Shown: positions 5,776-49,565 of the stretch, piece after piece | Position numbering within the stretch: the first letter of the stretch is position 1 | Layout: the number at the start of each line of letters is the position of its first letter | NCBI GenBank assembly: GCA_010356995.1 | Contig: ML996697.1 | Coordinates: 678,153 to 727,717 of the forward strand | From: Trichodelitschia bisporula | Taxonomy: Eukaryota | DNA: 49,565 nucleotides | Direction: 5' to 3' | Notes under the pieces: generated by a model | Seen by the model: the letters and a program-made list of their open reading frames with translations, nothing else | Told to the model about the DNA's origin: nothing | The model's database searches: none | Position numbers and translations under genes: made by a program

Positions 5776-6012
5776 AGGGCAAAAGCATAGAGCGGTTTGG
5801 GATTGGCTGCTGGTCACCCACACAATCACTAGTTCTAGTTCTAATCAACCGGCTCGTACCTTTACCAATTCCGCGCGCGGATGTAGGTCTCTGAGAAAAC
5901 CAGTCCCCGTCTACCCACTCAAGTGAAACAGCGAACCGGTTGATTAGAACTAGAACTAGTGGTTGTGTGGGTGACCAGCAGCCAATCCCAAACCCCGGTA
6001 TGTTTTTGTCCT
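5776..6012. repeat. Long inverted repeat (hairpin / MITE-like)
   Basis: Arm 5794-5856 (GGTTTGGGATTGGCTGCTGGTCACCCACACAATCACTAGTTCTAGTTCTAATCAACCGGCTCG) is a near-perfect reverse complement of 5932-5994, with a 75-bp spacer. Imperfect pairing extends to about 5776/6012. Confidence 0.9.
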
Positions 6013-6154
6013 CTGCATTGGAGCCTTATTTGGCTAGGAGGGTAATGCGGGGGAAGCTCTGCTGCGCAGTCCTATGTCTTTATTTTTTTACCAGGCTCTA
6101 ACTCTCAGGCCCGCTATGTACCACCTTGCAACTTCATTCAGCACATACGGCCAC

Positions 6155-6267
6155 AGGTCGCTGAGAACACCAGTCCCCGTCTGCTCACTGAAGTTAAACA
6201 GCGAACCGGTTGATTAGTAGTTGCGTGGGTGACCAGCAGCGAATCCCAACTGCTGTATGTATTTGAC
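6155..6267 (+). repeat. Diverged direct copy of the spacer plus right arm of the 5776-6012 element
   Basis: AGGTCGCTGAGAACACCAGTCCCCGTCT...AAACAGCGAACCGGTTGATTAG...GTGGGTGACCAGCAGCGAATCCCAA aligns with 5885-6010. Confidence 0.85.
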
Positions 6268-7410: not shown

Positions 7411-7510
7411 AGGAAGTCACGTCCCACCTGTGTAGGAAGTTACATCCCACCTGTGTAGTAAGTTACAGCCCACATATGGGTAGGAAGTCACGTCCTACCT
7501 ATGGAGGAAG
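7411..7510. repeat. Minisatellite, ~23-25 bp x ~4
   Basis: Tandem variants of AGGAAGTCACGTCCCACCTGTGT. Confidence 0.8.
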
Positions 7511-8339
7511 GAGGATCTTATGCCGGGAAGCCACCATCACTTCCTGAAGGGAGTTACCGGCTGTTTGTTGATGATGTGGAGCACGATGGGATGCATCATG
7601 GCAAGCACGCTGGTTATGCCAGTAGGAACTAAGGAGTACGATGCAGGCACACTGCATACACATGGCAACAGCCCCTGGTTTGTTTACGACATTGTTATGG
7701 CAGTATCGCCCAGCGCCTAGGAAGCCAACATGGCAACTGATTGTACTTAGGCTAGCTGGCACCGCGGCCGTCTTTCGAAGGGCGTCTTCGGCTTCACTTT
7801 TGCTTCCAATCACTGCTCGTGACGTTGTCTTTCCACACCACCAACAGCGCCTGTCTCTCGCTCCAGATTCATTCATTACACCAGAGTTTACGAGCCATCT
7901 CTGGCACGTCTTAGAGATCATCACCACTCCCACTCGCTTCTAGCACTCGCTTTGCCTACTACCACAATACACCGGTGTTAGTGCCCCCATACATACAACA
8001 AGCTTTGAGGTTTCGCGGGCAACGCACAGCGAGGCTCGCCCACAAATACACGCTCTCTTACCGTTTTCCTCTTGTGAGTCCCATACAGCTTCCTCTGTCG
8101 AACAGCTGACGTCGAGGCGACCAAAAACCCAATTCCCGTTGCTAATGCTCTCATAGATCACGGGCCACGCACCATGCCTGTTGGCAGCGCAGCCGACGAG
8201 AAGACCCAAGTGCTCGGCTTGGACGTAGTGATTAACAGCCATGTTTCCCGGTGAGAGCAGGAGGACGCTGGCTCGGAGATGGGCACCCTCTGCGCGGCTG
8301 TTCTCGATAGCGACGGGCACCCGGCGGCCTACAGTTCCT

Positions 8340-23749: not shown

Positions 23750-25762
23750 CGGAGATGCAAAGAGGAGAGGTCGAAGAGGTGAGGTTGTTGCGAGACGTCA
23801 CAAAGGCCAAGACGGGCGGACTGGGCACCACCGAGACAAGCGGAGGGCAGCTTCCCGACCTCACATCGCGGCAAAAACTAGCAAGGTTAGCATCAATCAT
23901 CACCATCCACGCCATCATTCGAACCTCAAGCCTCGTTCCACGCGTAAATCGGTATTCTGGTCTGCACCAGCAACTCCACGACCAGCACCTCTCTCGTGCC
24001 GGTCACCACCCTCCGCACTACACTACCCATTGTCGGCCGACTCCGCTCAATGCTCGACATCAACCAGCAACAGCTCGTAAAATTGCACACAATATCCGCC
24101 AATGGGCTTTAATCTTGCCCGAGAATTGCTACTTTGCGCTTAATCTGAACCAGAACCAGATGATGGGACGTGCAGACCAGCAGTCCGGACCCCAGATGCT
24201 GCCCGGCAATCAGTGCCGGACCACCATAGTGCACCGCGCACGAGGCCAAGTCGTGGCGGCGATGCGAACTATGGCCTTTACCATGCACCGCATCGGACGG
24301 ACGGGCGTCTGGCCGCCGCTTCTAGTGTCTTGGTCGGTCGAGAAGCATCTTTGGACGCTGGGCAATTCATTCGGGCGGCCTGGTCCGTCATAGCCACGAA
24401 GCTTCGCTCGTATTCCCACAGCTCTCATATCGCCTCTCCCAGCTCGCCCTCGCATCTCGAGCGCAGCCTCCCCACCCCTCCCCACATCCCCAGCTTCCCC
24501 CGCTCGCAAACACTTATACCCAGGACTCAAGCGTTATTGCGCACCCAACGGGCCGCGCAAAGTAACCCCACCAATCGCCGCTCCGTCGGCAACGGCCGAC
24601 ATCTGTAAAGGACTATGCGCAGCTACCTCCTCGCTCCGTCTCCCGCAAACGACACCCGCTGGCGCACTTGCCGGATATGGAAAGCCCATTTGTGCTCCGC
24701 AAGTCCCTCCGCTCTATTTGCCACACCTACGCTGATCGGGAACTAACGGCCGTTTCTAGTGCCGGCTGCTGCACACTGCGCGTGGAGTTAGAGAATGGCG
24801 GCGAAGGAAGCCTTGGAGTACCCCGCGTTTTGCCTGAAATAGGACTTTAGCGTGGTGTAGCATGGTGTCGCGATGGCGGAGGTTTGGGTATACACAGGGT
24901 GGGTGGAGTATTTGCCGTTATCAATACCAAACCACTCTGCCTCGCTTCCAATGTCCCGAACCGGCGGCCGCCGCCATCTATCGGAACCAGCAATGGAACC
25001 GACAAGTCGGACTCACCTAAGGAGATTCGGCTTCTTCTATCGGATTATTCCAAGAACTCGAACGTTCGGGTGGACTAGCGACGATGTACGGCATCTCCTC
25101 CGAGCCCTTCTTTTGCCGATCTCCTCATTGGCAGCAGGTGCAGCTTTGCCCACAGTCCCGGCTCCGAGTTTCGGCAATGGTTTGAGGTCGGGGCCCGAAA
25201 TGACGCCGTTTTAGCGTAATGATCTACCAGATGGTACTCTGCCCGTCTCCGGCTGCGCTTCGATGAATGTGGCGGTTCTCACGGTGCGTAGGTTGCGTGT
25301 GAATTTGGGACTGGATCTCTGATGGGACAAGATGAAGCTCTTCCCCGGAATCTGCAGATGGACTTCCTAGATCTAATGATATGACACATTTAACTTCTTC
25401 CGTGCTCGCCGAGTTGTTGTCGGGGTTTCTCGGTAATGTGCATAGATTCATTTCGAAGACGCCCGTGATACATGCCGTGAGTTGTCGTTAGTTTGCCGGG
25501 CATGTACATTGGTCACCAGTGCAGAGTAAAGGCAAAAATGAAAGACGAAGAATAGAAAAGAGAGGAGAGTGGCAGAGCGGCTGTCCTGCCCTCTAGTGCT
25601 GCTTCTGGCTTCTCCCTCAGCTACTTCCCCAGCCAGGTATGCTCCTTCCAAAAGTATGGATGCTCCTTTCCCTTGCTCTACGCCAGAGCCAGACTTCATC
25701 CGCGTAGAAAGGCTGAATATAGCTGATACCGGATGAGACGAAAGGTTCTCCGCACAGGAATG

Positions 25763-28460
25763 GCGATATCTTCATGACTCTGCAGTCCCGGCGCTTGGGA
25801 CATCGTCCCCCATAATCACCGAGTTGCCCGTAACATTCTGAACTCAACAATCTTCATTTCGGAGGAGGTTGATGGTACATGCCCTGGTAATGAGTAGTCA
25901 TGTGATGGTCTACCGTATTCGGACTTGAGGCACTGATGGATGAGACAAGAGGTTCACGGAGGAAGATGTGGATATCTCCACCATTCTGACGATCTAGCAT
26001 TTCAGACATTGTCTCCAGTGATTTTCAGATTGCCTTCGGTATCCCAATACCAGCAAATTTTGTCTTCGAAGGAGTCGATGATACACGCAGGATATTGCGA
26101 CGCAGACGTCCGCTCAAAAGCGGACCACGCGAAGAACCCGATATCTCCACGGTTCCGCCAATCTAACGATTTTAAATATTCTCTAGTGATCGCTAGGCTG
26201 TTCTCAGCATGTCAATGTTAGCAAACTTAGTTTTCGAAGAGGTCGGTGGTGCACGCTAAATATTGCGACGTATATGTCCGCTCAAAAGCGGGCCGCGCAA
26301 AGAAGCCGATATCTCCACGGTTCCGGTGTCCCGACGTCCCGGACTTTGTCTCTAGTGATCGCTAGGCTGTTTTCAGCATATCAATACCGGCAAACTTATT
26401 TTTCGAAGAGGTCGGTGGTGCACGCTGGATATTGCGATACAGACGGCGGCTTAAAAGCGGGCCTTGCGAAGAAGCCGATATCTCTACCGCTCCGCCGATC
26501 CAGCGTCTTTAACATTGTCTCTGGCAATTATCAAGCTACCCTAAGAATTTTGATGCCAACAAACTTTGATTTCGAGGAGGCCGATGATACACGCTGGGCT
26601 TTGCGATATAGACGTCTGCTCAAAAGCGGATCCATAAGAAGTAGCCATATCTCCACCGCTCCGCCGATCCAGCGCTTCTAACGTCGTCTCTAGTAATCGT
26701 CAGGTTGCCGTAAGTACATTGATCCCGACAAACTTTGCTTTCGTGGAGGTTGCTGATACACGCCATAAATCGACCCAAACGAAGCGCTCCCGATCCATCG
26801 ATCAATGGATCATCAATCCACATATATATGGATCCATCGATCAATATATCTTATTTTCCTTGTGCTGCTGACGTTAGGCCATCAGGGGCTTCCTCAGAGC
26901 ATCATAGAGAGCTTCAACAGTTGGCGGGGATGGCGTTTTTGACATGGTCTCCGGTGATCGCCTAGTTGCCCACAGCATTTAGATGCCAATTAGAATCGCT
27001 TTTGAAGAGGTTAATGATACACGCCATGAATCCACCTAAGCCGAGCGATTCCGATCCATTGATCAATGGATCACCAATCCATAGATATATGGATCGATCG
27101 ATCAATCTATCTTAATATTCTTGTGCTACTGACGTCAGGGCATCAGCCTTGCGGAGAAAAACGTCGATAACTTCACCACTTCGAAGAGATGACTTTGAGC
27201 ACATGGTCTCTCGTAGTCCCCAGTCTGCCTTCAGTATGTTGATGCTAATCAGTTTTATTTTCGAGGAGGTTGATGATGCACGTCACAACTCGACCTAAAC
27301 CGAGCGACTCCGAATCCATTGATCAATGGATCCTCAATCCATAGATATATGGATCTACCCATAAATCAATATTAGTGCTGTAGACGTCCGGGTATCAGTG
27401 TGACAACCACAACACCATGAATATCCCCACCAAATTGCGGATATAGCGTGTATGACACTGTTTTCTGCGATCATCGAGCTGTTCTGAGCATTCTTATGCT
27501 AACTTGACTCGTTTCCGAAGAGGTTAATGGTACACGCTATGCCTATAGATCCATCGATCAGTCTACCTTGATGTCCTTACCTGTTGACCGAGCATAAAGG
27601 CGACAACCAGACCACCATGGATAGCTCCACCAATTTGCGGAGAAGGCGTGCATGACATGGTCTCCTGTGATTGCCCAGCTGCCGTAAAATTTTGATGCCC
27701 GTTAGAATCATTTTCGAGGAGGTCAGTGATACACGTCATGAGTGTATAGATCTACAGTCTATAGATGTATGGATCGATCGATCAATCCATTTTAGTGCCG
27801 TCCACGTCCGGACATCAATGCAACAACTAGAAAATCATGTATAGTTCCACCAGTTCGCGGAGATGGCGTGCATGATGTGGTCTGCCGTGATCATCTAGTC
27901 GCCGTGAACATTCTGATGCCCATTGAAATCGTTTTTGAAGAGGTTGATGATACACGTTATGATGAGTATAGATCCACAATCCATACATGTAGAGATCCAT
28001 CGATCAAGCCATCTTAGTACAGGATATCAAACTGTTACCCCGATATCTCCACGGTTCCGCAGAACAGGCGTTTATAACATCCTTCCCAGTAATCTCCAAG
28101 TTGCCCCGAACATCCTCATCTCAATTAAAATTACCTTAGAGGAGGTTGGTGATACAAGTCGTGAGTATAGATCCACAGTCTATATATGTATGGGTTCATC
28201 GATCAACCCATCTTAGATGTAGAAATCCAGCACGGCATCAGCCTATCACCCCGATATCTCTACGGTTCCGCAGAACACGCGTTTATAACATCCTCCGCGG
28301 GGATCTCCAAGTCGCCCTGAACATTCTCATGCCAATTAGAATCGTTTTCGAGGAGGAGGTCGATGATACGCGCCATGAAGCGACCCAAACCGAGCGACTC
28401 CGATCCATTCATCAATGGATCCTCAATCCATAGATATACGGATTTATCGATCAAACCCTC
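25763..28460. repeat. Tandem array of 13 diverged non-coding units (conserved ~120-bp module + variable segment)
   Basis: Core TT(C/T)GA(A/G)GAGGT(T/C)GATGATACACG variants occur at ~25858, 26065, 26233, 26402, 26571, 26740, 27001, 27260, 27514, 27713, 27934, 28136 and 28347. Each is preceded ~95 bp upstream by a GATATCTCCAC-like motif. Confidence 0.92.
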
Positions 28461-28798
28461 TTAAACGTATACTTTCTCAGCCATTGCTCATCAACGGCTC
28501 TGCCGACAGGTATCCGTACATGAGGCACATCAACCTACTCCCCTCCCCTACCCACCCATCACCTAACCGACTCGGTACTGCATATGTCAAACTTCGCGAT
28601 ACCCGACACGGCCAACACTCACTCGGAGAAAACAGGACTGTTCCTAATATTCCATTCCGCTATGATCAGACACCCCGTTCCCTACATCACCGCTATGACA
28701 GACACCCTACCGAACCCGCCCACCGCAGATGCCACAACGCCCGCCTCCCGTCCTTTTAAACGCCGCCTCAAGTCTCAAGTCCAGAACAACAGCCCGAT

Positions 28799-31780
28799 CT
28801 ACGCCCTCCCCTTCCCTTTAGTCTCCTTACTCACAGGCGCCCCCCTCCCCGCCCCCGTACTCCCACCCAACCCCCTTCCAGACACCGCCCGCGCCCCAGG
28901 CAACCCTCTCTCCGGCTGCGCAGCCCTCCTATCCTTCTCCGCCGGGACCGCGGTCCTCGCCCCCCTCTCCTTCCCCTCCCGTCCCGCCTCTTTCCCCGCC
29001 GGCACCACCGTAGCCGGCGTCTTCGCCCCCACCGGCCGACTATGCCGCTTCCTCCTAACCGGACTATAAACATCATTAAAATTCATAACCATCGCCAACC
29101 ACCTCATATCCGTATCCGGCTGCGCATACAGATCCCCCAGGAGTACATTAACCCTCGCCTTGAAATCGGCCGCTAGGTGCGCTAGCCTCCCCCTCAAGCC
29201 ACCCAGGATATCATCCTCGCTCACAGAGGCCAGACCGAGGCCATGCGGTGCGGCAATCGGGGTTGGTATATCGTCATCGCGCTCGCTGAGGCCCCACTTG
29301 CCTGCGGCGGTGCGGTTCTCGATCTTCGCGCTCCGCTCCTGCCTTCGCGTAAACTCTGCAACAGAGAAAGAATACAGCCCATCCACCGCATCTTTGTACG
29401 CGAGCATCGTCTTCAACAACTCGTGCAACTGTCCGGGAAAATCAACCGCACTCGCGCCTAACAACCCCTTCCGCGTGATGGCCGTCAAGTACGCCGCATG
29501 CGCAGCAATAAGATCATCGAGCGTAGAATCCGGCCTGCGCATGGCTTCCTGCAACTCCCCCCAACTGCTCTCGATGACTTCGAACAGGATGTAGTACTGC
29601 AGCTGATTGACAAAATGCACCATCTCCGCCACCACGCACCGCGCACTCTTCCAATCCCCCCCCACCCTATCCGTAACCGCGCCGAGCACGCCCCGCGCAC
29701 CCGTCATGCACCGCCGCCACGTCGTCCCGAGCGCGAACTCGACGCGCTTGACGCGCCATAGGAAATTGAATACTTTGAGGTATTGCTTGGAGCCGAAGGG
29801 CGTGACGATGACGTCGACGGGCGGGGAAATCTTGTACTCCAAAGTGAAAACATCCCAGCCGATTTCGCCGTGGCTGAGTTCCAGCATGCGGCTATCCAGC
29901 CTGCGCAACACGTCGGGGGAATCGTGCTGGGCGTTTGAATTGCGGACCGCGTGTTCGAGTTGCGCGGTCAGGGTGTGGCGGTACTGCGTATTAGCAGGCC
30001 GGTCCAGGTTCGCAGAGAGCGACTCCATGAGCACGGCGATGAAGTCGCCCGCGCCGAGGAGGAGGTATTTCTTGAGGGCGGAGAGGTGCTCGAAGAGATG
30101 GAATTTGTTTTCCATGAGGGTGATTAGGCGCGCCATGGTTGTTTTGTACGCTTCATCGATGCTAGTCTCCAGCGTCGCGGTGTCGCCGTAGTGCAGCTCG
30201 CGGGAGGCAGATTTGGAATACGACTCAACCCAGCTTGCGTCGTTGCAGCCATGCCGGATGAAGTTGAGCGATTTGCCGATGAGGAAGACTTTGTTCGCGA
30301 AGGAGTCGGTGATGATGCTAGGCACCATGGCTGCGTTGAGCTTGTACTTGTCCTCCCACACGCTCGTCGCGCCGCCCTTGCCCGTGTCGTCTAGCTTCTC
30401 CTGCTGCTCCGAGACGAAGAACTCGAGATGCGGATCCGAGAGCTCGCCGTCGTAGATCCACTGCCGGAGCATGTCGTAGAACGGCCGCGTCACGTGGGAG
30501 AGTAAGCGCTCGGCGAAGTTGACGACGAAGGGGTCGCCGTGGGTGAGTGCGAAGGAGTGGATCACTGAGATGAGCTGGCCGCCCTTTTTGTCTGCCTCCG
30601 TTAGCCGGCGAAAACTTGAACAATGCACCGCGGGCTCACCCTTCGACTGCTCCACCATCAGGCTCATCAGCCTCAGCCCCATCGTCGCCTCGCGCGTCCA
30701 CACCACGCAGCGCTTCAGCGTAACCCCCGCCTTGCCAATCCCCTGCCTCGGCCCATCATCCAGCTGCGCCAGCGCACGACGGATCTGGCCCTCCAGCGTC
30801 GCCACCAGCCCCAGATAAGCCCTCAACTCAATGCTCAGCGCCGAGCGGAAACTCTGCCCCACCAGGCCGCCGCTCGACGACTCGACAAACTCAGACAGCC
30901 CGCGGTAAAGTAAGCACGGTTCGGCGAGCGTGTGTAGCAGGCCGATCACGGGAACCGGAAGCGTGGGCGGCAGCTTGAGGATCTTGGAGGAGGAGAAGAC
31001 GAGGTTGGTGGATGAGAGGCCCTGCAGCGTGAAGGGAAGGTCGCGGAGGAGCGCTGGCTCGGGCGGCGTCAGCGCGTCGTAGTTCGGGTATGAGGGAGAT
31101 GGGGGCGGCGGCTCGGCCTCGGGCTCTGCGTCTCTAGTACGCTCTCGCCGCTGGCGCGACGCGGGGCGTTCCTGACGGGGCTCCTCCGTGGCCGGAAGCC
31201 GCAGTAGCCCGGCGTTCGAAAAGGCTTCGTTGAAAGCGGAGCTGTCGACGACGTATTGCCGTCCCTTGCGTTCCTCCGACGCTCCGACCGTCGGGCTGTG
31301 GCTGCGGCGGTGGTTTGCCATGGACTGGCGGTTCTCAGCGGTAGGGGCGTCGGTCAGGGAGTGGAGGAAGTAGAGCATCGCCCATTTTTGGCTGAGCACG
31401 GGCTGCGAAAGCAGCCGGGAGTAGAGGTTGGAGAACTTGAGGGCTTTTTCGGGGGACAGGTTGTCGCGGATCACTGGCCGATTAGCTATGAGCGGAACTA
31501 AGGGCAGTCGCGAGGGAAACCATACGTCGCCTCTTAATCAGATCGGCGGCATGATGTACATCAGGTCCGACGGCGGTGTCGGCAGCACTGGCACCTGTTA
31601 ACGCGGCCCCGAGCTCGTTCAACACCCTACGCACCTCGCTATCGCGTTGCGCGCAAAGGCAAAGGCGTCGTCCAGGCGCTGGTCGGCGGTCTCGTCGTCA
31701 TCCTCGGGGTAGATGGGCACAGTGCGTTCCAGCAGCTGCCAGAGCGCGTTGTCGATGCGTTCCTCGGTGGATTTGGACAT
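28799..31780 (-). CDS. spc98: Gamma-tubulin complex component 3 (Spc98/Alp6/GCP3)
   Basis: ATG at 31780 (MSKSTEERIDNAL), with introns 31588-31634, 31474-31525 and an in-frame intron 30592-30639. GRIP-domain motifs include WEDKYKL, KVFLIGKSLNFIR, ALKKYLLLGAGDFI, GWDVFTLEYKI, YLKVFNFLWRVKRVE and QYYILFEVIESSW. Confidence 0.93.
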
Positions 31781-35816: not shown

Positions 35817-36363
35817 GGGGGTAGGGAGTTATGAGAGTAAATGAACATTTCTTGATTGAAAGTCTGAGTATGGTTGTGGTTTCGTATGTCGCCGTTCCGT
35901 CGGCCTTACCCAATGTAGCCTTGCCGAAGGCCTCGCCCATACAGTCTTGCTCTTGTAAGCCCCTCTCCAATGGAACCACTCATGTCCACTAATACCCCAC
36001 AACAGGTTTGATACTAGACGAACCGTCCCCCTCCCGCCGCGGTCGGCCGGTGAGACTCATCGTCCCAGCGAGGCTGAGACCCACGATTCTTGGCGTTGGG
36101 TTTCGCAAACGGATTTTCTCCGAAGTGCGACCGCGGGGAGTCACGGGACGAGGACCTGTAGACGTGAATCGTAGGTCGTACCTTCCGTTTACGAGGACTC
36201 CCACCGTGAGAGGCTATCCAGAGGAAACGGTCCGTGGCTGCCGTTGGTGTGACGTTTTTGGCCCCTGGAGGTCTATAAATACGGCTCCTCCGCTCCTATT
36301 TCCTCTTCTTCTTTTCCACAACATCTTCCCCACTTCAACGCCCAATCATCTCCAAAACATCTT

Positions 36364-36511
36364 CTCCACAACATCTACAAAATCTCCTCCACAACATCTA
36401 TAACATATCCTCCACAACATCTACAACATCTCCTCCACAATATCTACAACATCTCCTCCACAACATCTACAACATCTCCTCCACAACATCTACAACATCT
36501 CCTCCACAACA
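36364..36511. repeat. 23-bp minisatellite x ~6.5
   Basis: CTCCACAACATCTACAACATCTC units start at 36364, 36387, 36410, 36433, 36456, 36479 and 36502. Confidence 0.95.
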
Positions 36512-37552
36512 TACACAACTCCTTCCTCACCACTCCACCACTCGACCACCTCAACTTCATCTTTCCCCAAATACCAAGCCTGACATCTGTCCCCCCCTGT
36601 ATACTCGCTGAGCGCGCGACGCTCACTCTCGCCCCACTCGCCAGTTATGATGACATCTTGACGGATGCGCTGGTAGATCATGTACGCCTATGAGTGCCCC
36701 CGCGCGTGTGCGTGCTCCGCTAACTCGCTGCAGGTATACTTCTGGTCGACGATCCGCAAGAACCTGTCTCGGTATATACATACGAGTATACCTTGGAAAT
36801 AGCTTATCCTACGCTTCCGAAGACGGGAAAGCAGGCGTGAAATCCCCTATACTCAACATCCGATCGCCTCCTTTTCAGTATCCTGCCTCGGGTCGTTAGG
36901 CCCCGAGATGACTATATCATGGATATCGTACCGCCTGCCTCAATTCGCCTCGAAGGCATCATACAGCGCGCGCGCGACGCTGTCATCAAGAACATCCCCA
37001 AAGGCAAGGGCGATATACCACCAGGGTATATACTCGCCCCCTACTCCCGCCGCCGCCGTCTCGCAAATCTTCACGCATGATGGCCACGAAGCGATTACCG
37101 TCTAGTCGTACCCTGGATCGCCACAGCATCATTATCGACTTAACTGCGGATTGACGGAATCGTGCAGATATCCCTAACCGACAACAAGTGCCTCGACGAG
37201 CAAGCTAGGTTTGAGGGTTGTCGGTCGGCTTTCGAACACGGCGGTACTGCGTTCACAACGGCACCCGGCCCCTGAGATGTATATTGCGCGCCTTGCGCCA
37301 GGTCACCACCCGCACCGAGACCATGGTCAAGAACGTTTCCGACAAGTATATCGAGGCCAAGCCCGTGGCCCGTTCTTTCACTCACAACCATCATTGCTAC
37401 CAGAACCAGTCTCGCGGCTGGCTGGCACCTTTCACTTCCGTTCTGTCGAAATCGGGCGCATATACGCCCCCGCGCCCGATGTGCTCGAGGTGTTTGCCAC
37501 CGCCGCTGTCCGCCCCCGCCCGTATACAAAGTCCCGTCTATATATAAGACCG

Positions 37553-45783: not shown

Positions 45784-46560
45784 AATTAAGTGTGAACTTG
45801 ACTGAGTTGCTTGATCGACTAACAGTGGGAAGTGAGCTGACTATATACCTCGCCAGGAGACGACCCCTGTCTCCTGGCTCCGCTCCAGCCACCCCAGGTT
45901 GCCGCCACAAATTCAACATATCTCCTCCATCTGAACAGTCTGTATGCTCCGTCTGTCCCTCACTGCGCTGCCAAACTCCCGCCCAAAACCATGACCGCCA
46001 CTCCGGCATCCTCCTGAGCCTGTTTATGCTCGAGCCCTGGTCAGTCTCGATATCCCGTACAGCACCTACGACGCGGGCATAGACAACGCAAGCAGCGTGG
46101 GCGGTGCTGATGGCGGAAGGTATCCAAGACTTGTGTTTGTATATCCAAGTGATTGTCCTCTGGAATCTTCCAGCCTGTTCCCTTTTGCCACTTATTACAA
46201 ATTGTGAGCCACAGTCGGCTTCTGCTTGCCGACGCCACTGTTGATCGCGCAATGATGTGGCGAGGTTGTCGTATGCCACCGCCATCAGGTGCAACATGGA
46301 TGAACAACCGGGTATGTCCTCCAGCGAAGTCTTCGTCTATGAACTGATCAGTTGGTAGGAGAACCCGATGCCCCGTGGCATGTGGCTGTGTCTCCTCCAA
46401 TCTCGTCCTCTCCGCGCCCGACAGCTCACAGCCTCATTCTTGGCATTCTGCCCCGCAGTTGAGCTCAGCTCGAAGCCCAAAAGCCTCGCCTTTAACCTCC
46501 AGTTCCACTCCTGCATTTTCACAAGTCCGCAATTTCTTGACTAGCATCATTATTTCCAAG

Positions 46561-49500
46561 ATGCCACCTGCAAAGCGGATCCGGACACGGGGCCGCTTCC
46601 ATGCCTCTTCCAGTCTTTCACGACCCTCCTCACCTGTTGCTGGTGAGACCATCGCACCTGCCCCCGCGAGCAATGTCAGCCAGACTTCAACCTTACCACT
46701 TGCCCTCCATAGAACCACCAACAGAAAGCCAACCCGCCAACTTCGTCACGAAGACTACACAATAGGGTGGATTTGCGCGCTCCCGATTGAACTTGCAGCA
46801 GCCCAGGAGATGCTCGATGAAGTGCACCAACCTCTTCCCCAGGACGCGTCCGATCCTAATAGCTACACGCTCGGCCGCGTTGGCGAACGCAATACGGTGA
46901 TCATGGTCTTGGCGCGGACGGGCACAAACTCGGCCGCCTCGGCTGTTGCTCGTATGAAGTCTACCTTCACTTCGGTTAAGCTCGGCGTCATGGTCGGCAT
47001 CGGAGGCGGTGTGCCAAGCCCAAAAGTCGACATCCGGCTTGGGGACGTTGTCGTTTGCGAACCGTCCAAGGATTGTGGCGGAGTGATTCAGTACGACTTG
47101 GGCAAGACCAGGCCGGGCAGAGTTGAACGAACTGGATACTTGAACGCACCCCCAGAAGCCTTGCAGAGCGCGCTGGCGAGTCTGAAGGCTGGCCATCTGA
47201 AAGGAAGAGTTGGTTTCCTAGATCATCTTGCAAAGCTCAGCAACCAGCCCCTTTTCGCTCGCGACAAGGCTGGGCCCGATGTCCTATACAACGCTGTGTA
47301 CAACCATGAGGAGGGAGAGGAAAACTGCAACAATTGTAAGGAAGAACATAGCGTGCGGCGCCAGACACGTGGCGAACATGTCATGGTTCACTACGGTACG
47401 ATCGCTTCGGGGAATCAAGTCATGCGCGATGCCAAGGAAAGGGACAAAGTCAGCAGGAAGCTTGGAGGCGTACTCTGTTTTGAGATGGAGGCGGCGGGGC
47501 TCATGAACAGTTTTCCGTGCCTTGTTGTGCGGGGAATCTGCGACTACTCTGACTCGCATAAGAACAAGAGCTGGCAGCCGTACGCGGCGGGGACGGCGGC
47601 AGCGTACGCTAAAGAGCTTCTATTGTTGGTTCCGCCGGCCAAAGTCGAAATGCCAGAAGATCCACCCGCGCCGGCAATGCTCCTAAACTTGCCTAGGGCT
47701 GCAGACACACCATCCAACCCACACGAGCGGAAAAAAGCGCCTTGCCTGACTGGTACCCGAGTCGAACTTCTCAAAAAGATATACGCCTGGGCTTACGGGG
47801 AGAACTCGCCAAATATTTTCTGGTTGAGTGGTTTAGCTGGCACCGGCAAGTCCACCGTGGCTCAAACTGTGGCCGCCGAATGTTTTGAGAAGGGAAGGCT
47901 TGGAGGCAGCTTCTTCTTCTCGCGAAGTGGCGCAGATGTCCGGCATGCCGGCAAGTTCGTGACAAGCATCGCAGCGCAACTTGCAGACAATGTGTCGGGG
48001 GCAAAGCGGTCTCTCTACAAGGCTCTAAAGGAGCGAGACACCATCATTGAAGAGCCTATCCGCAGTCAGTGGCATCATCTCATCCTCGGTCCCATGTCGA
48101 AGCTCGAAGGCAACACCTCCTCTGCTCCGTACATCCTGGTAGTCGATGCCCTGGACGAATGCGAGGGCGAGGACGGCATAGGGGAAATTCTGAATCTATT
48201 CGGCTTGCTGAAGAAAACCCGGCTCCGGCTGTTTTTAACGAGTAGACCTGAAGTGCCAATCCGGTTTCCTTTATCTGAAATGCCAACAAGCGAGCACCTA
48301 GACTTTGTGCTCCACGATATTAAGAAGTCGACTGTTGACAATGATATCCGCTTCTTCCTACGGCACGAGCTCGAGCGTTTAGCCCGCAAACACTCTTTTG
48401 ACAAAGATTGGCCAGGCGAGCAAGCCATCGACTCACTTGTCCGGAACGCTAGTGGTCTGTTCATCTGGGCTGAAACTGCATGCCGTTTTGTTGAACAAGG
48501 AAGAATATTGGCTCCCAAGAAACTAGGCTTGATCCTCGATCAAAACCACAGTACTGTGAAAGGGCCAGAGCAGCATCTCGACGAGATCTACGCGACTGTT
48601 CTTCGCCAATCCCTTACCAACTATGAAGGCGATGATGCAGAGGAGGTGCGATCCACATTGAAGGAACTGCTTGGAGGCATCGTGATCCTGTTCAATTCAC
48701 TTTCCATCCCGTCCTTGAGCAGGCTACTAGGCCAGAATGTGGGACAGGCACTGGATGATCTTCACGCCATTTTGGACATTCCAAAGGACATTCGAAAGGA
48801 ACCAGGTGACGCACTCCGTTTACATCACCCTTCGTTTCGTGACTTCCTTCTCAACCCAGGGAGAAGCGAGAAAACAGGTCTATGGGTTGATGAAGAGGAG
48901 GCGCATCGAGACCTTGCCACGAAATGCATACAGGTCATGTCTGACTTCCTTACGCAGGACATGCTTGGAATAAGTCGACCTGGAGTACTCAAGACCGAGG
49001 TCGACAGTCATGAGGTTGAAGGCTCCCTCCATCCTGAGAAGCAGTATGCATGCCTCTACTGGATACAGCATCTTCATAAGAGTGGATCTCAGCTCAACGA
49101 TGACGGTGAAGTTCATGAGTTCCTGAAGGAGCATCTCCTTCATTGGCTTGAGGCGCTTGGATGGATGCAAAAGGTTTCCGAAGGGTTCCATGCCATCGTG
49201 TCTTTGGAGTCCATGATATCGGTAAGCTGGACCTAAAGCAGAGTGGGGATACTTGGCTGATACTTAACTCAGGCGCAGAGGTGTCCCCGACTATCGGAGT
49301 TTGTTCATGACATGAAACGATTTGTCCTCTACAACCGGTCAGCCATCGAACTAGCTCCCTTGCAGACATATTGCAGCGCGCTGGTATTTTCCCCGACAGC
49401 AAGTCTTGTAAAAAGACGGTTTCAAAGCAAAATGCCTCTGTGGATGCCCGGACTACCGCAGGTTAGGGACAACTGGGATGCCTTGCTGCATACGCTCGAG

Positions 49501-49565
49501 GGCCATTCGGATTGGGTCAACGCCGTGGCCTTCTCGCCGGACGGCAAGCAGCTGGCGTCGGCATC
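46561..49565 (+). CDS. Fungal NLR: PNP_UDP_1 effector - NACHT - WD40 (HET-E-like), partial at the window end
   Basis: ATG at 46561. PNP_UDP motifs [25 protein letters not shown] and [35 protein letters not shown] Walker [13 protein letters not shown], Walker [10 protein letters not shown] and ASGLFIWA. Intron 49222-49272 leads to [32 protein letters not shown] and the first WD40, [23 protein letters not shown]. Confidence 0.95.

What the first reader, a model, noticed from the sequence alone, without database searches (positions are those of the whole stretch)
25763..28460. Unexplained 13-unit non-coding array with a conserved module and variable segments
Seen: 13 head-to-tail units. Each has a ~120-bp module (GATATCTCCACGGTTCCGC...ACAT.GTCTC..GTGATC..CA.GTTGCC....CATT.TGATGCCAATTAGAATCGTTTTCGAAGAGGTTGATGATACACG) followed by a segment of variable length and type. 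Core-to-core spacings are about 207, 168, 169, 169, 169, 261, 259, 254, 199, 221, 202 and 211 bp. Units are strongly diverged, yet motif order and internal spacing are kept, most lengths are not multiples of 3, and stops occur in all frames. It sits in genic DNA ~340 bp from the spc98 stop, unlike a homogenised satellite. Inference: an array of protein-binding or recombination sites (possibly for a tyrosine recombinase or transposase), a polycistronic structured-RNA cluster, or a nucleosome-phased element (169-bp subarray). This is the best candidate here for an undescribed system.
Basis: partly seen in the sequence, partly recalled or inferred. Interest (0 to 1): 0.78.

Follow-up and report, generated by a model that had tools for sequence, protein, structure and literature searches.

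The report
Old satellite-like repeat cluster in fungus
Between two genes of a fungus lies a real run of 13 worn copies of a 117-base unit; it belongs to a small family of repeats scattered over this genome and most likely grew by local duplication without a present job, although the unit's fixed length is still unexplained.

Summary
The array is real: 13 full-length 117-bp modules (25766-28373, mean identity 64%), a decayed 14th, and linkers of two types. It is intergenic in a gene-dense 25.8-Mb fungal genome and not unique. The same module forms 3-unit arrays on contigs C1 and C15. A second family (B; two small arrays, five solos) shares a 54-bp linker and a 25-bp box with it. A dispersed repeat C, with hundreds of copies by extrapolation, sits inside the array. 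There is no coding selection (omega 0.82-1.15 in six frames), no conserved RNA fold, no Rfam, Pfam or protein homolog, no RIP signature, no shared element ends and no recombinase nearby. Neighbouring units are most alike, and linker types follow module clades. Best reading (0.6): an old satellite-like cluster, grown from a dispersed non-coding repeat by tandem duplication, unequal exchange and swaps between loci. Still odd: modules carry 0.6 gaps per 100 substitutions against 1.8-3.0 in families B and C, and the box keeps its spacing in A and B. A cis-acting site array stays possible (about 0.12-0.15). Conservation in other fungi could not be tested.

The parts
25766..28373 (.). Array of 13 family-A modules (117 bp): 25766-25882, 25972-26088, 26141-26256, 26309-26425, 26478-26594, 26647-26763, 26908-27024, 27167-27283, 27421-27537, 27621-27736, 27841-27957, 28043-28159, 28254-28373
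   Evidence: nhmmer with a profile of the units; alignment
25858..25882 (-). Example of the 25-bp end box of the module (GCRTGTAY-N10-YTCGAAA read on the minus strand), the slowest-changing part and the only module part shared with family B
26089..26646 (.). Type I linkers, four of 52 bp (26089-26140, 26257-26308, 26426-26477, 26595-26646), giving the 168/169-bp period; one has a 7-bp hairpin at 26108-26125
26764..28500 (.). Type II linkers, 83-144 bp, GATC-rich and palindromic (perfect 20-bp palindrome at 27053-27072); an eighth, partial one lies beyond the last module at 28374-28500; the palindrome pattern occurs only in this array
25883..25971 (.). Single 89-bp linker; about 35 bp of it continue the unit and recur next to modules on C1 and C15
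25374..25475 (-). Decayed 14th module at the array edge, with the box intact
   Evidence: (E 1.3e-4), (E 0.0015)
25476..25707 (.). Copy of dispersed repeat family C lying between the decayed module and the first full module
28799..31537 (-). spc98 (gamma-tubulin complex) gene, 3' end towards the array; not part of the repeat
   Evidence: Pfam PF17681 and PF04130; spliced joints in RNA contigs
23759..25214 (+). Spliced transcript left of the array (introns 24699-24759 GC-AG and 25086-25137 GT-AG), no Pfam family; its right end is not fixed; not part of the repeat

Best explanation
An old, non-coding, satellite-like cluster with no present function. Shown: the 117-bp module belongs to a low-copy family with 3-unit arrays on two other contigs; neighbouring units are each other's closest relatives; linker type follows module clade; some modules are mosaics; a linker piece is shared between arrays of two otherwise unalignable families. 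Inferred: one dispersed unit of about 150-250 bp, probably a relic of a non-autonomous mobile element, landed in this intergenic gap and multiplied by tandem duplication and unequal exchange. Each round carried the linker next to it. Pieces were now and then swapped with clusters elsewhere, the short end box helping to set the register. The copies have since decayed to about 64% identity, like the other old repeat families B and C of this genome.
For: Adjacent modules are more alike than in shuffled order (0.684 against 0.635, P 0.002, 20,000 permutations). Tree clades are runs of neighbours: u03+u04 98, u05+u06 84, u02-u06 85, u10+u11 92, u12+u13 94; these clades carry type I or type II linkers. 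Mosaic units: u12 and u13 are 95% alike in the last third but have other nearest neighbours in the first third. C15 modules nest among u07-u11 (support 79) but carry a linker shared with the family-B array on C10 (42-48 of 50 bases for four copies). No coding selection: omega 0.82-1.15 in six frames, stop counts within neutral simulation, no codon periodicity, P 0.42. No fold: 0 pairs on both strands, mean z -0.2. Families A, B and C have the same mean identity, 0.62, 0.61 and 0.60, and similar rate variation, alpha 2.7, 4.5 and 3.0. Family C occurs in 6 of 40 evenly chosen 10-kb stretches, and an unrelated non-coding 201-bp doubling in 1 of 40. Sister linkers change no faster than modules (u03-u06 0.69 against 0.71; u07-u09 0.76 against 0.63).
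Against: Modules are indel-poor: 3 gaps in about 504 substitutions against 19 in 635 for family C (P 0.002) and 10 in 541 for family B (P 0.06). The comparison with sister linkers is not significant (3/194 against 13/315, P 0.19), and the module was defined as the gap-free stretch. All 19 scored modules are full length. In the 13 window units 20 of 117 columns are invariant against 7.5 +/- 2.7 under uniform rates (0 of 300 simulations), alpha 1.6, and the first 25 columns change least (P 0.049 for 13 units, 0.013 for 19). The box lies 38-41 bp from the shared linker in both the A and the B array although the bases between differ. No parent element with ends, target duplications or a transposase was found, so the mobile-element origin is inference only.
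Confidence: 0.6

Rival explanations
1. An array of cis-acting sites. The bipartite box at a fixed distance from its neighbours is bound by a trans-acting factor (recombinase, transposase or chromatin protein), which keeps the module length fixed and lets linkers be exchanged between loci like cassettes.
For: Low indel rate and full-length modules. The box is the slowest part. The first 25 columns of the A profile align best at the box of family B, above 100 of 100 shuffles, while the rest of A and B does not align (the 25-column piece was chosen after seeing it). Same 40-bp offset from the shared linker on C10 and C15. A one-mismatch box hit on C4 proved to be a family-B solo.
Against: The box is not invariant and has no dyad symmetry (alignment). 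No recombinase or transposase catalytic domain among 158 frames near the arrays; one pogo-type DNA-binding fragment lies 12-15 kb from two B solos. Linkers are local duplicates, not unique cargo. Rate variation for 19 modules equals that of family C. With one mismatch the box pattern gave 21 hits against 16 for the reversed control.
Confidence: 0.15
2. The module is a dead 39-codon piece of a protein-repeat gene (NLR-type or other) that lost function early and was then multiplied as non-coding DNA. This rival concerns the origin of the unit and is compatible with the later history in the best explanation.
For: The majority sequence is open over 39 codons in one frame on each strand, and in only these 2 of 6 frames. 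Indels are rare and one of three is 3 bp. One minus-strand frame has slightly fewer stops than simulated (20 against 31-35, P 0.03-0.05, 1 of 6 frames).
Against: Omega near 1 and stop counts neutral in the two open frames. 10 of 12 spacings break frame, and 1 of 12 linkers has a donor site. No homolog: Pfam, PDB (E 1.6 or worse), 1.84 billion representatives for the plus frame (7 hits, all summed weak matches in unrelated repetitive proteins), word searches for both frames (weak evidence by the tool's own note), own genome (only array units).
Confidence: 0.15
3. A cluster of small non-coding RNA genes (snoRNA-like or polymerase III) of fixed length, missed by poly(A) libraries.
For: Fixed length of about 120 nt and conserved ends.
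Against: No Rfam match at E <= 1. RNAalifold gives 0 pairs for 16 modules on both strands. Single-module z-scores average -0.2. A box C hexamer is present in 2 of 13 window units (seen).
Confidence: 0.05
4. A structural chromatin element: a nucleosome-phasing array or a small centromere-like locus.
For: Four spacings of 168-169 bp; lower GC than the window (0.47 against 0.56); one family-A array per contig on three contigs.
Against: Other spacings run from 178 to 341 bp. No 10-bp periodicity in site rates. Spliced genes lie within a few hundred bases on both sides. No AT-rich, transposon-rich surroundings, unlike known filamentous-ascomycete centromeres (recalled).
Confidence: 0.05

Closest known systems
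Small euchromatic satellite clusters, Drosophila 1.688 and Rsp-like (PMC7403614; abstract read)
   Same: Short blocks of complex repeats in gene-rich DNA, local growth by unequal exchange, one family joined to clusters of another, spread between loci.
   Different: Here about 20 copies at three loci, 64% identity, no large parent block found, a fungus, and linkers of several types between full-length modules.
Complex satellite arrays of Meloidogyne with conserved boxes at monomer junctions (PMC3694981; abstract and the section on motifs and junctions read)
   Same: Repeat families too diverged to align that still share a short box; composite arrays; monomers of low mutual identity.
   Different: The A/B junction lies about 30 bp from the box, not in it; no likeness to the CENP-B box was tested; copy number is tiny.
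Helentron non-autonomous elements with central repeats, Cg_HINE (PMC7492417; abstract read)
   Same: Short satellite-like arrays dispersed through a genome; palindromes near the units.
   Different: The three family-A arrays share no flanking element ends.
Integron- or CRISPR-type cassette arrays (recalled)
   Same: A recurring module alternating with variable segments.
   Different: The module is long and only 64% conserved; the spacers are related duplicates; no integrase or recombinase is linked.

Membership tests
Short dispersed satellite-like array | Head-to-tail non-coding units of 100-400 bp | tested here: met
Short dispersed satellite-like array | Neighbouring units most alike; mosaic units from unequal exchange | tested here: met
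   P 0.002
Short dispersed satellite-like array | Related clusters at other loci, with pieces shared between clusters | tested here: met
   C1 and C15 arrays, C10/C15 linker
Classical satellite DNA | High copy number and homogenised monomers | tested here: not met
   20 modules found, 64% identity; 0 hits in 400 kb of evenly chosen sequence
Short dispersed satellite-like array | Conserved box at junctions between families | tested here: inconclusive
   box shared, junction about 30 bp away
Short dispersed satellite-like array | Circular DNA intermediates; unit number differing between strains | not testable with these tools
   no relative genomes held; only contig-level runs
Helentron/Helitron element with central repeats | Common 5' and 3' element ends around each array | tested here: not met
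   flank comparison of three A and two B arrays
TIR element or MITE | Terminal inverted repeats around the unit or array | tested here: not met
   no such arms among the 25 longest inverted pairs shown of 69; palindromes lie inside linkers
TIR element or MITE | Target-site duplication | not tested
   element ends too decayed to place
Protein-repeat gene or exon array | Omega below 1 and few stops in one frame | tested here: not met
Protein-repeat gene or exon array | Frame-keeping spacing or splice signals in linkers | tested here: not met
   2 of 12 spacings divisible by 3; 1 of 12 linkers with a donor site
Protein-repeat gene or exon array | Intact homolog | tested here: inconclusive
   none found, but the queries are 39-72 residues and the full-profile search covered the plus frame only
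Polycistronic snoRNA or structured RNA cluster | Rfam match or conserved fold with covariation | tested here: not met
Tyrosine-recombinase (Crypton, DUF3435, integron-like) site array | Linked recombinase gene | tested here: not met
   none in 37 + 50 + 71 frames near the arrays; the rest of the genome was not searched for it
RIP-decayed repeat | C-to-T bias at CpA and high TpA/ApT index | tested here: not met
   C>T 0.19 at CA, 0.19 at CC, 0.21 at CT; TpA/ApT 0.58
Centromere or nucleosome-phasing array | CENP-A or MNase signal | not testable with these tools
   no such data available

The most novel reading that the evidence does not exclude
A fungal cassette system: a fixed-length 117-bp module with a bipartite box is the recognition and exchange site of a trans-acting enzyme or chromatin factor. 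Two deeply diverged module families (A and B) keep the box at the same offset, swap linker cassettes between chromosomes and, as solos, sit just upstream of housekeeping genes.
Probability: 0.12. Interest if true: 0.75.

Novelty: new member of a known kind. Interest (0 to 1): 0.3.

Why it matters
On the likely reading it matters modestly. It is a clear, fully assembled example of how a dispersed repeat becomes a complex tandem cluster and trades parts with other clusters in a compact fungal genome; six literature searches listed no description of such clusters in filamentous fungi. If the box and spacing prove constrained across species, it would be an undescribed cis-acting array in fungi, with a simple test (binding to the box, deletion of a 2.7-kb intergenic block).

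Tried and rejected
RNA: no RNA holder was listed for the array. The DNA contig that spans the array without differences may be the source of the assembly, so it is not independent. 5S rRNA origin, suggested by the 120-bp length: the only 5S match is at 6143-6261. A-to-I repair of stops: many stops fall at Trp columns but others do not, and counts are neutral. Linkers as introns: signals absent. Likeness to a phosphoribosyltransferase motif on C22: only the 10 residues by which the locus was picked align, so it was rejected as circular. Seven profile hits were summed weak matches in unrelated repeat proteins. Exact-pattern scans gave 0 stretches in metagenome contigs, viral contigs and prokaryote genomes, and blastn found nothing in phages; these collections are not fungal genome sets, so the blanks say little. 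Whole-profile A-versus-B alignment was not above shuffles (17.2 against a maximum of 22.3). Hairpins in type II linkers are weak as a consensus (-3.4 kcal/mol, 1 of 10 pairs with a two-sided change). Three-sequence folds of family B had unfavourable covariation terms. Five one-mismatch box hits (C2, C6, C7, C8, C13) and three pattern hits (C6, C15, C22) showed no module.

Full report
Observation. The array is there as described. A fuzzy motif search and a nucleotide profile give 13 full-length modules of 117 bp between 25766 and 28373, all in one orientation, and a decayed 14th at 25374-25475. Spacings are 206, 168, 169, 169, 169, 261, 259, 254, 199, 221, 202 and 214 bp; 10 of 12 are not multiples of 3, and every frame has 32-47 stops. 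Mean module identity is 0.64, with three indels in 13 units. The segments between modules are of two types: four 52-bp linkers, and seven GATC-rich palindromic linkers of 83-144 bp plus a partial eighth; one 89-bp linker stands alone.

Setting. The window lies on contig C11 of a 25.8-Mb, 44-contig genome. Intron-bearing genes such as spc98, the pentafunctional arom gene and a NACHT gene mark it as fungal ('ascomycete' is my inference). The array is intergenic, between the 3' end of spc98 and a spliced plus-strand transcript without a Pfam family.

The family. The module (family A) also forms three-unit arrays at C1:217.6 kb (spacings 179, 178) and C15:138.8 kb (341, 264), with their own linkers. 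Identity between loci is 0.57-0.63. The C15 linker recurs in a four-unit array at C10:785 kb whose units belong to a second family, B. Family B also has five solo copies (C4 three times, C11, C1) and a two-unit array on C15. A and B share two things: the 54-bp linker piece (42-48 of 50 bases among four copies; a fifth 39-41; a sixth, partly deleted, 20-25) and a 25-bp box lying 38-41 bp from it in both arrays. Outside the box they do not align above shuffles. A third repeat, family C, fills 25476-25707 inside the array edge. It is common: 7 hits in 6 of 40 evenly chosen 10-kb stretches, or roughly 400 copies by extrapolation, while A and B had 0 hits in those 400 kb. One of the 40 stretches held an unrelated non-coding 201-bp doubling. 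Genome searches score only the best candidates, so all counts are lower bounds.

Is it protein-coding? The majority sequence is open for 39 codons on both strands, so I tested this at length. For 19 modules (the decayed one left out) omega is 0.82-1.15 in all six frames. Stop counts (25, 20, 42, 8, 31, 71) match neutral simulation (means 21, 35, 40, 12, 32, 65), with one frame slightly low (P 0.03-0.05). Rates do not differ by codon position (P 0.42). Linkers lack splice donors in 11 of 12 cases. No homolog was found in Pfam, PDB, 1.84 billion representatives (plus frame only), word searches or the own genome. A coding ancestor that died before the copies diverged cannot be excluded.

Is it RNA? 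Rfam gives nothing at E <= 1 for the array or for six loci of the related families. RNAalifold finds 0 pairs on either strand of 16 modules, and single-module z-scores average -0.2. The RNA runs available give no usable evidence on expression of the array (see Tried and rejected).

Is it part of a mobile element or recombination system? The flanks of the three A arrays and two B arrays share no ends; the only match is the roughly 30-bp continuation of the unit. Among 158 reading frames in and around the loci there is no recombinase or transposase catalytic domain; one 185-residue frame with a pogo-type DNA-binding domain lies 12-15 kb from two B solos. The whole genome was not searched for such genes. 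RIP indices are negative.

How it grew. Adjacent modules are more alike than in shuffled order (P 0.002). Supported clades are runs of neighbours and carry matching linker types. Some modules are mosaics, and the edge unit is the most decayed. C15 modules nest within the u07-u11 clade but carry the linker of the C10 B array. This is the pattern expected from tandem duplication, unequal exchange and occasional exchange between loci; the mechanism is inferred from the pattern, not observed. Families A, B and C have decayed to the same level (0.62, 0.61, 0.60; 19, 11 and 8 copies, the 8 being the C hits at E <= 1e-8) and show similar rate variation (alpha 2.7, 4.5, 3.0).

What does not fit neatly. 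Modules have 0.6 gaps per 100 substitutions against 1.8 in B and 3.0 in C (P 0.06 and 0.002); against sister linkers the difference is not significant (P 0.19), and the module was delimited as the gap-free part. All 19 scored modules are complete. In the 13 window units 20 of 117 columns are invariant against 7.5 expected (0 of 300 simulations), and the box end is slowest (P 0.049 and 0.013). The box keeps its offset in A and B. The box pattern was written after seeing both families, so its 7 of 7 exact hits in arrays are circular; with one mismatch it gave 21 hits against 16 for the control. These points keep a site-array reading alive at about 0.12-0.15.

Comparison with known systems. It works like the small euchromatic satellite clusters of Drosophila (PMC7403614, abstract) and the composite nematode arrays with a shared box (PMC3694981, abstract and one results section). 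It fails the test for Helentron central repeats (PMC7492417, abstract) and is not a classical homogenised satellite. No supplements were read. Six searches of the paper library listed no description of such clusters in filamentous fungi (listings only; most subscription papers are not held). Conservation in other fungi could not be tested, as no relative is held.

Verdict. Real, non-coding, a new sequence family of a known kind: most likely an old satellite-like cluster without function (0.6). Interest 0.3.

Noticed in passing
window 6143-6261 and 5776-6012: A dispersed 5S rRNA gene (Rfam RF00001) next to an 81-bp inverted repeat, one arm of which holds an inverted piece of the 5S gene.
   Followed up: partly
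L061:4504-4680, L062:4625-4800, L082:7906-8077, L096:232-409, L068:9358-9530: All 5 family-B solos lie about 0.2-0.4 kb upstream of a gene start on the same strand (two genes by Pfam; three judged by eye). This may be targeted insertion or promoter use; n is small.
   Followed up: partly
L082 about 8060-8080 (G000:C11 near 745.8 kb): A family-B solo breaks off at a short TTAGGG run, like an interstitial telomere repeat (the label is recalled).
   Followed up: no
L100:6932-7349 (G000:C15 near 151 kb): A two-unit family-B array has its own GATC/ATCA-rich palindromic linkers, resembling but not clearly homologous to the type II linkers of the window.
   Followed up: partly
window 25476-25707; L030, L068, L069, L085, L120, L131, L137: Family C: an abundant 230-bp dispersed repeat with a purine-rich tract and a short internal tandem unit; one copy (C22) lies in an RNA contig. 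Its class is unknown.
   Followed up: partly
L092:31-588 (G000:C4 near 438 kb): A 185-residue frame with a Tc5/pogo DNA-binding domain and no catalytic domain, between two family-B solos.
   Followed up: partly
window 23759-25214: A spliced plus-strand transcript with a GC-AG intron and no Pfam family, divergent from the gene on its left; possibly a long non-coding RNA.
   Followed up: partly
L136:7933-8343 (G000:C14 near 208 kb): An unrelated non-coding 201-bp tandem doubling, 75% alike.
   Followed up: no
window 46348-49565: A PNP_UDP-NACHT gene of NLR type; the window's last bases match 126-bp coding repeats on C4.
   Followed up: no
window 36345-36530 and 7411-7510: Two 23-bp minisatellites.
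   Followed up: no
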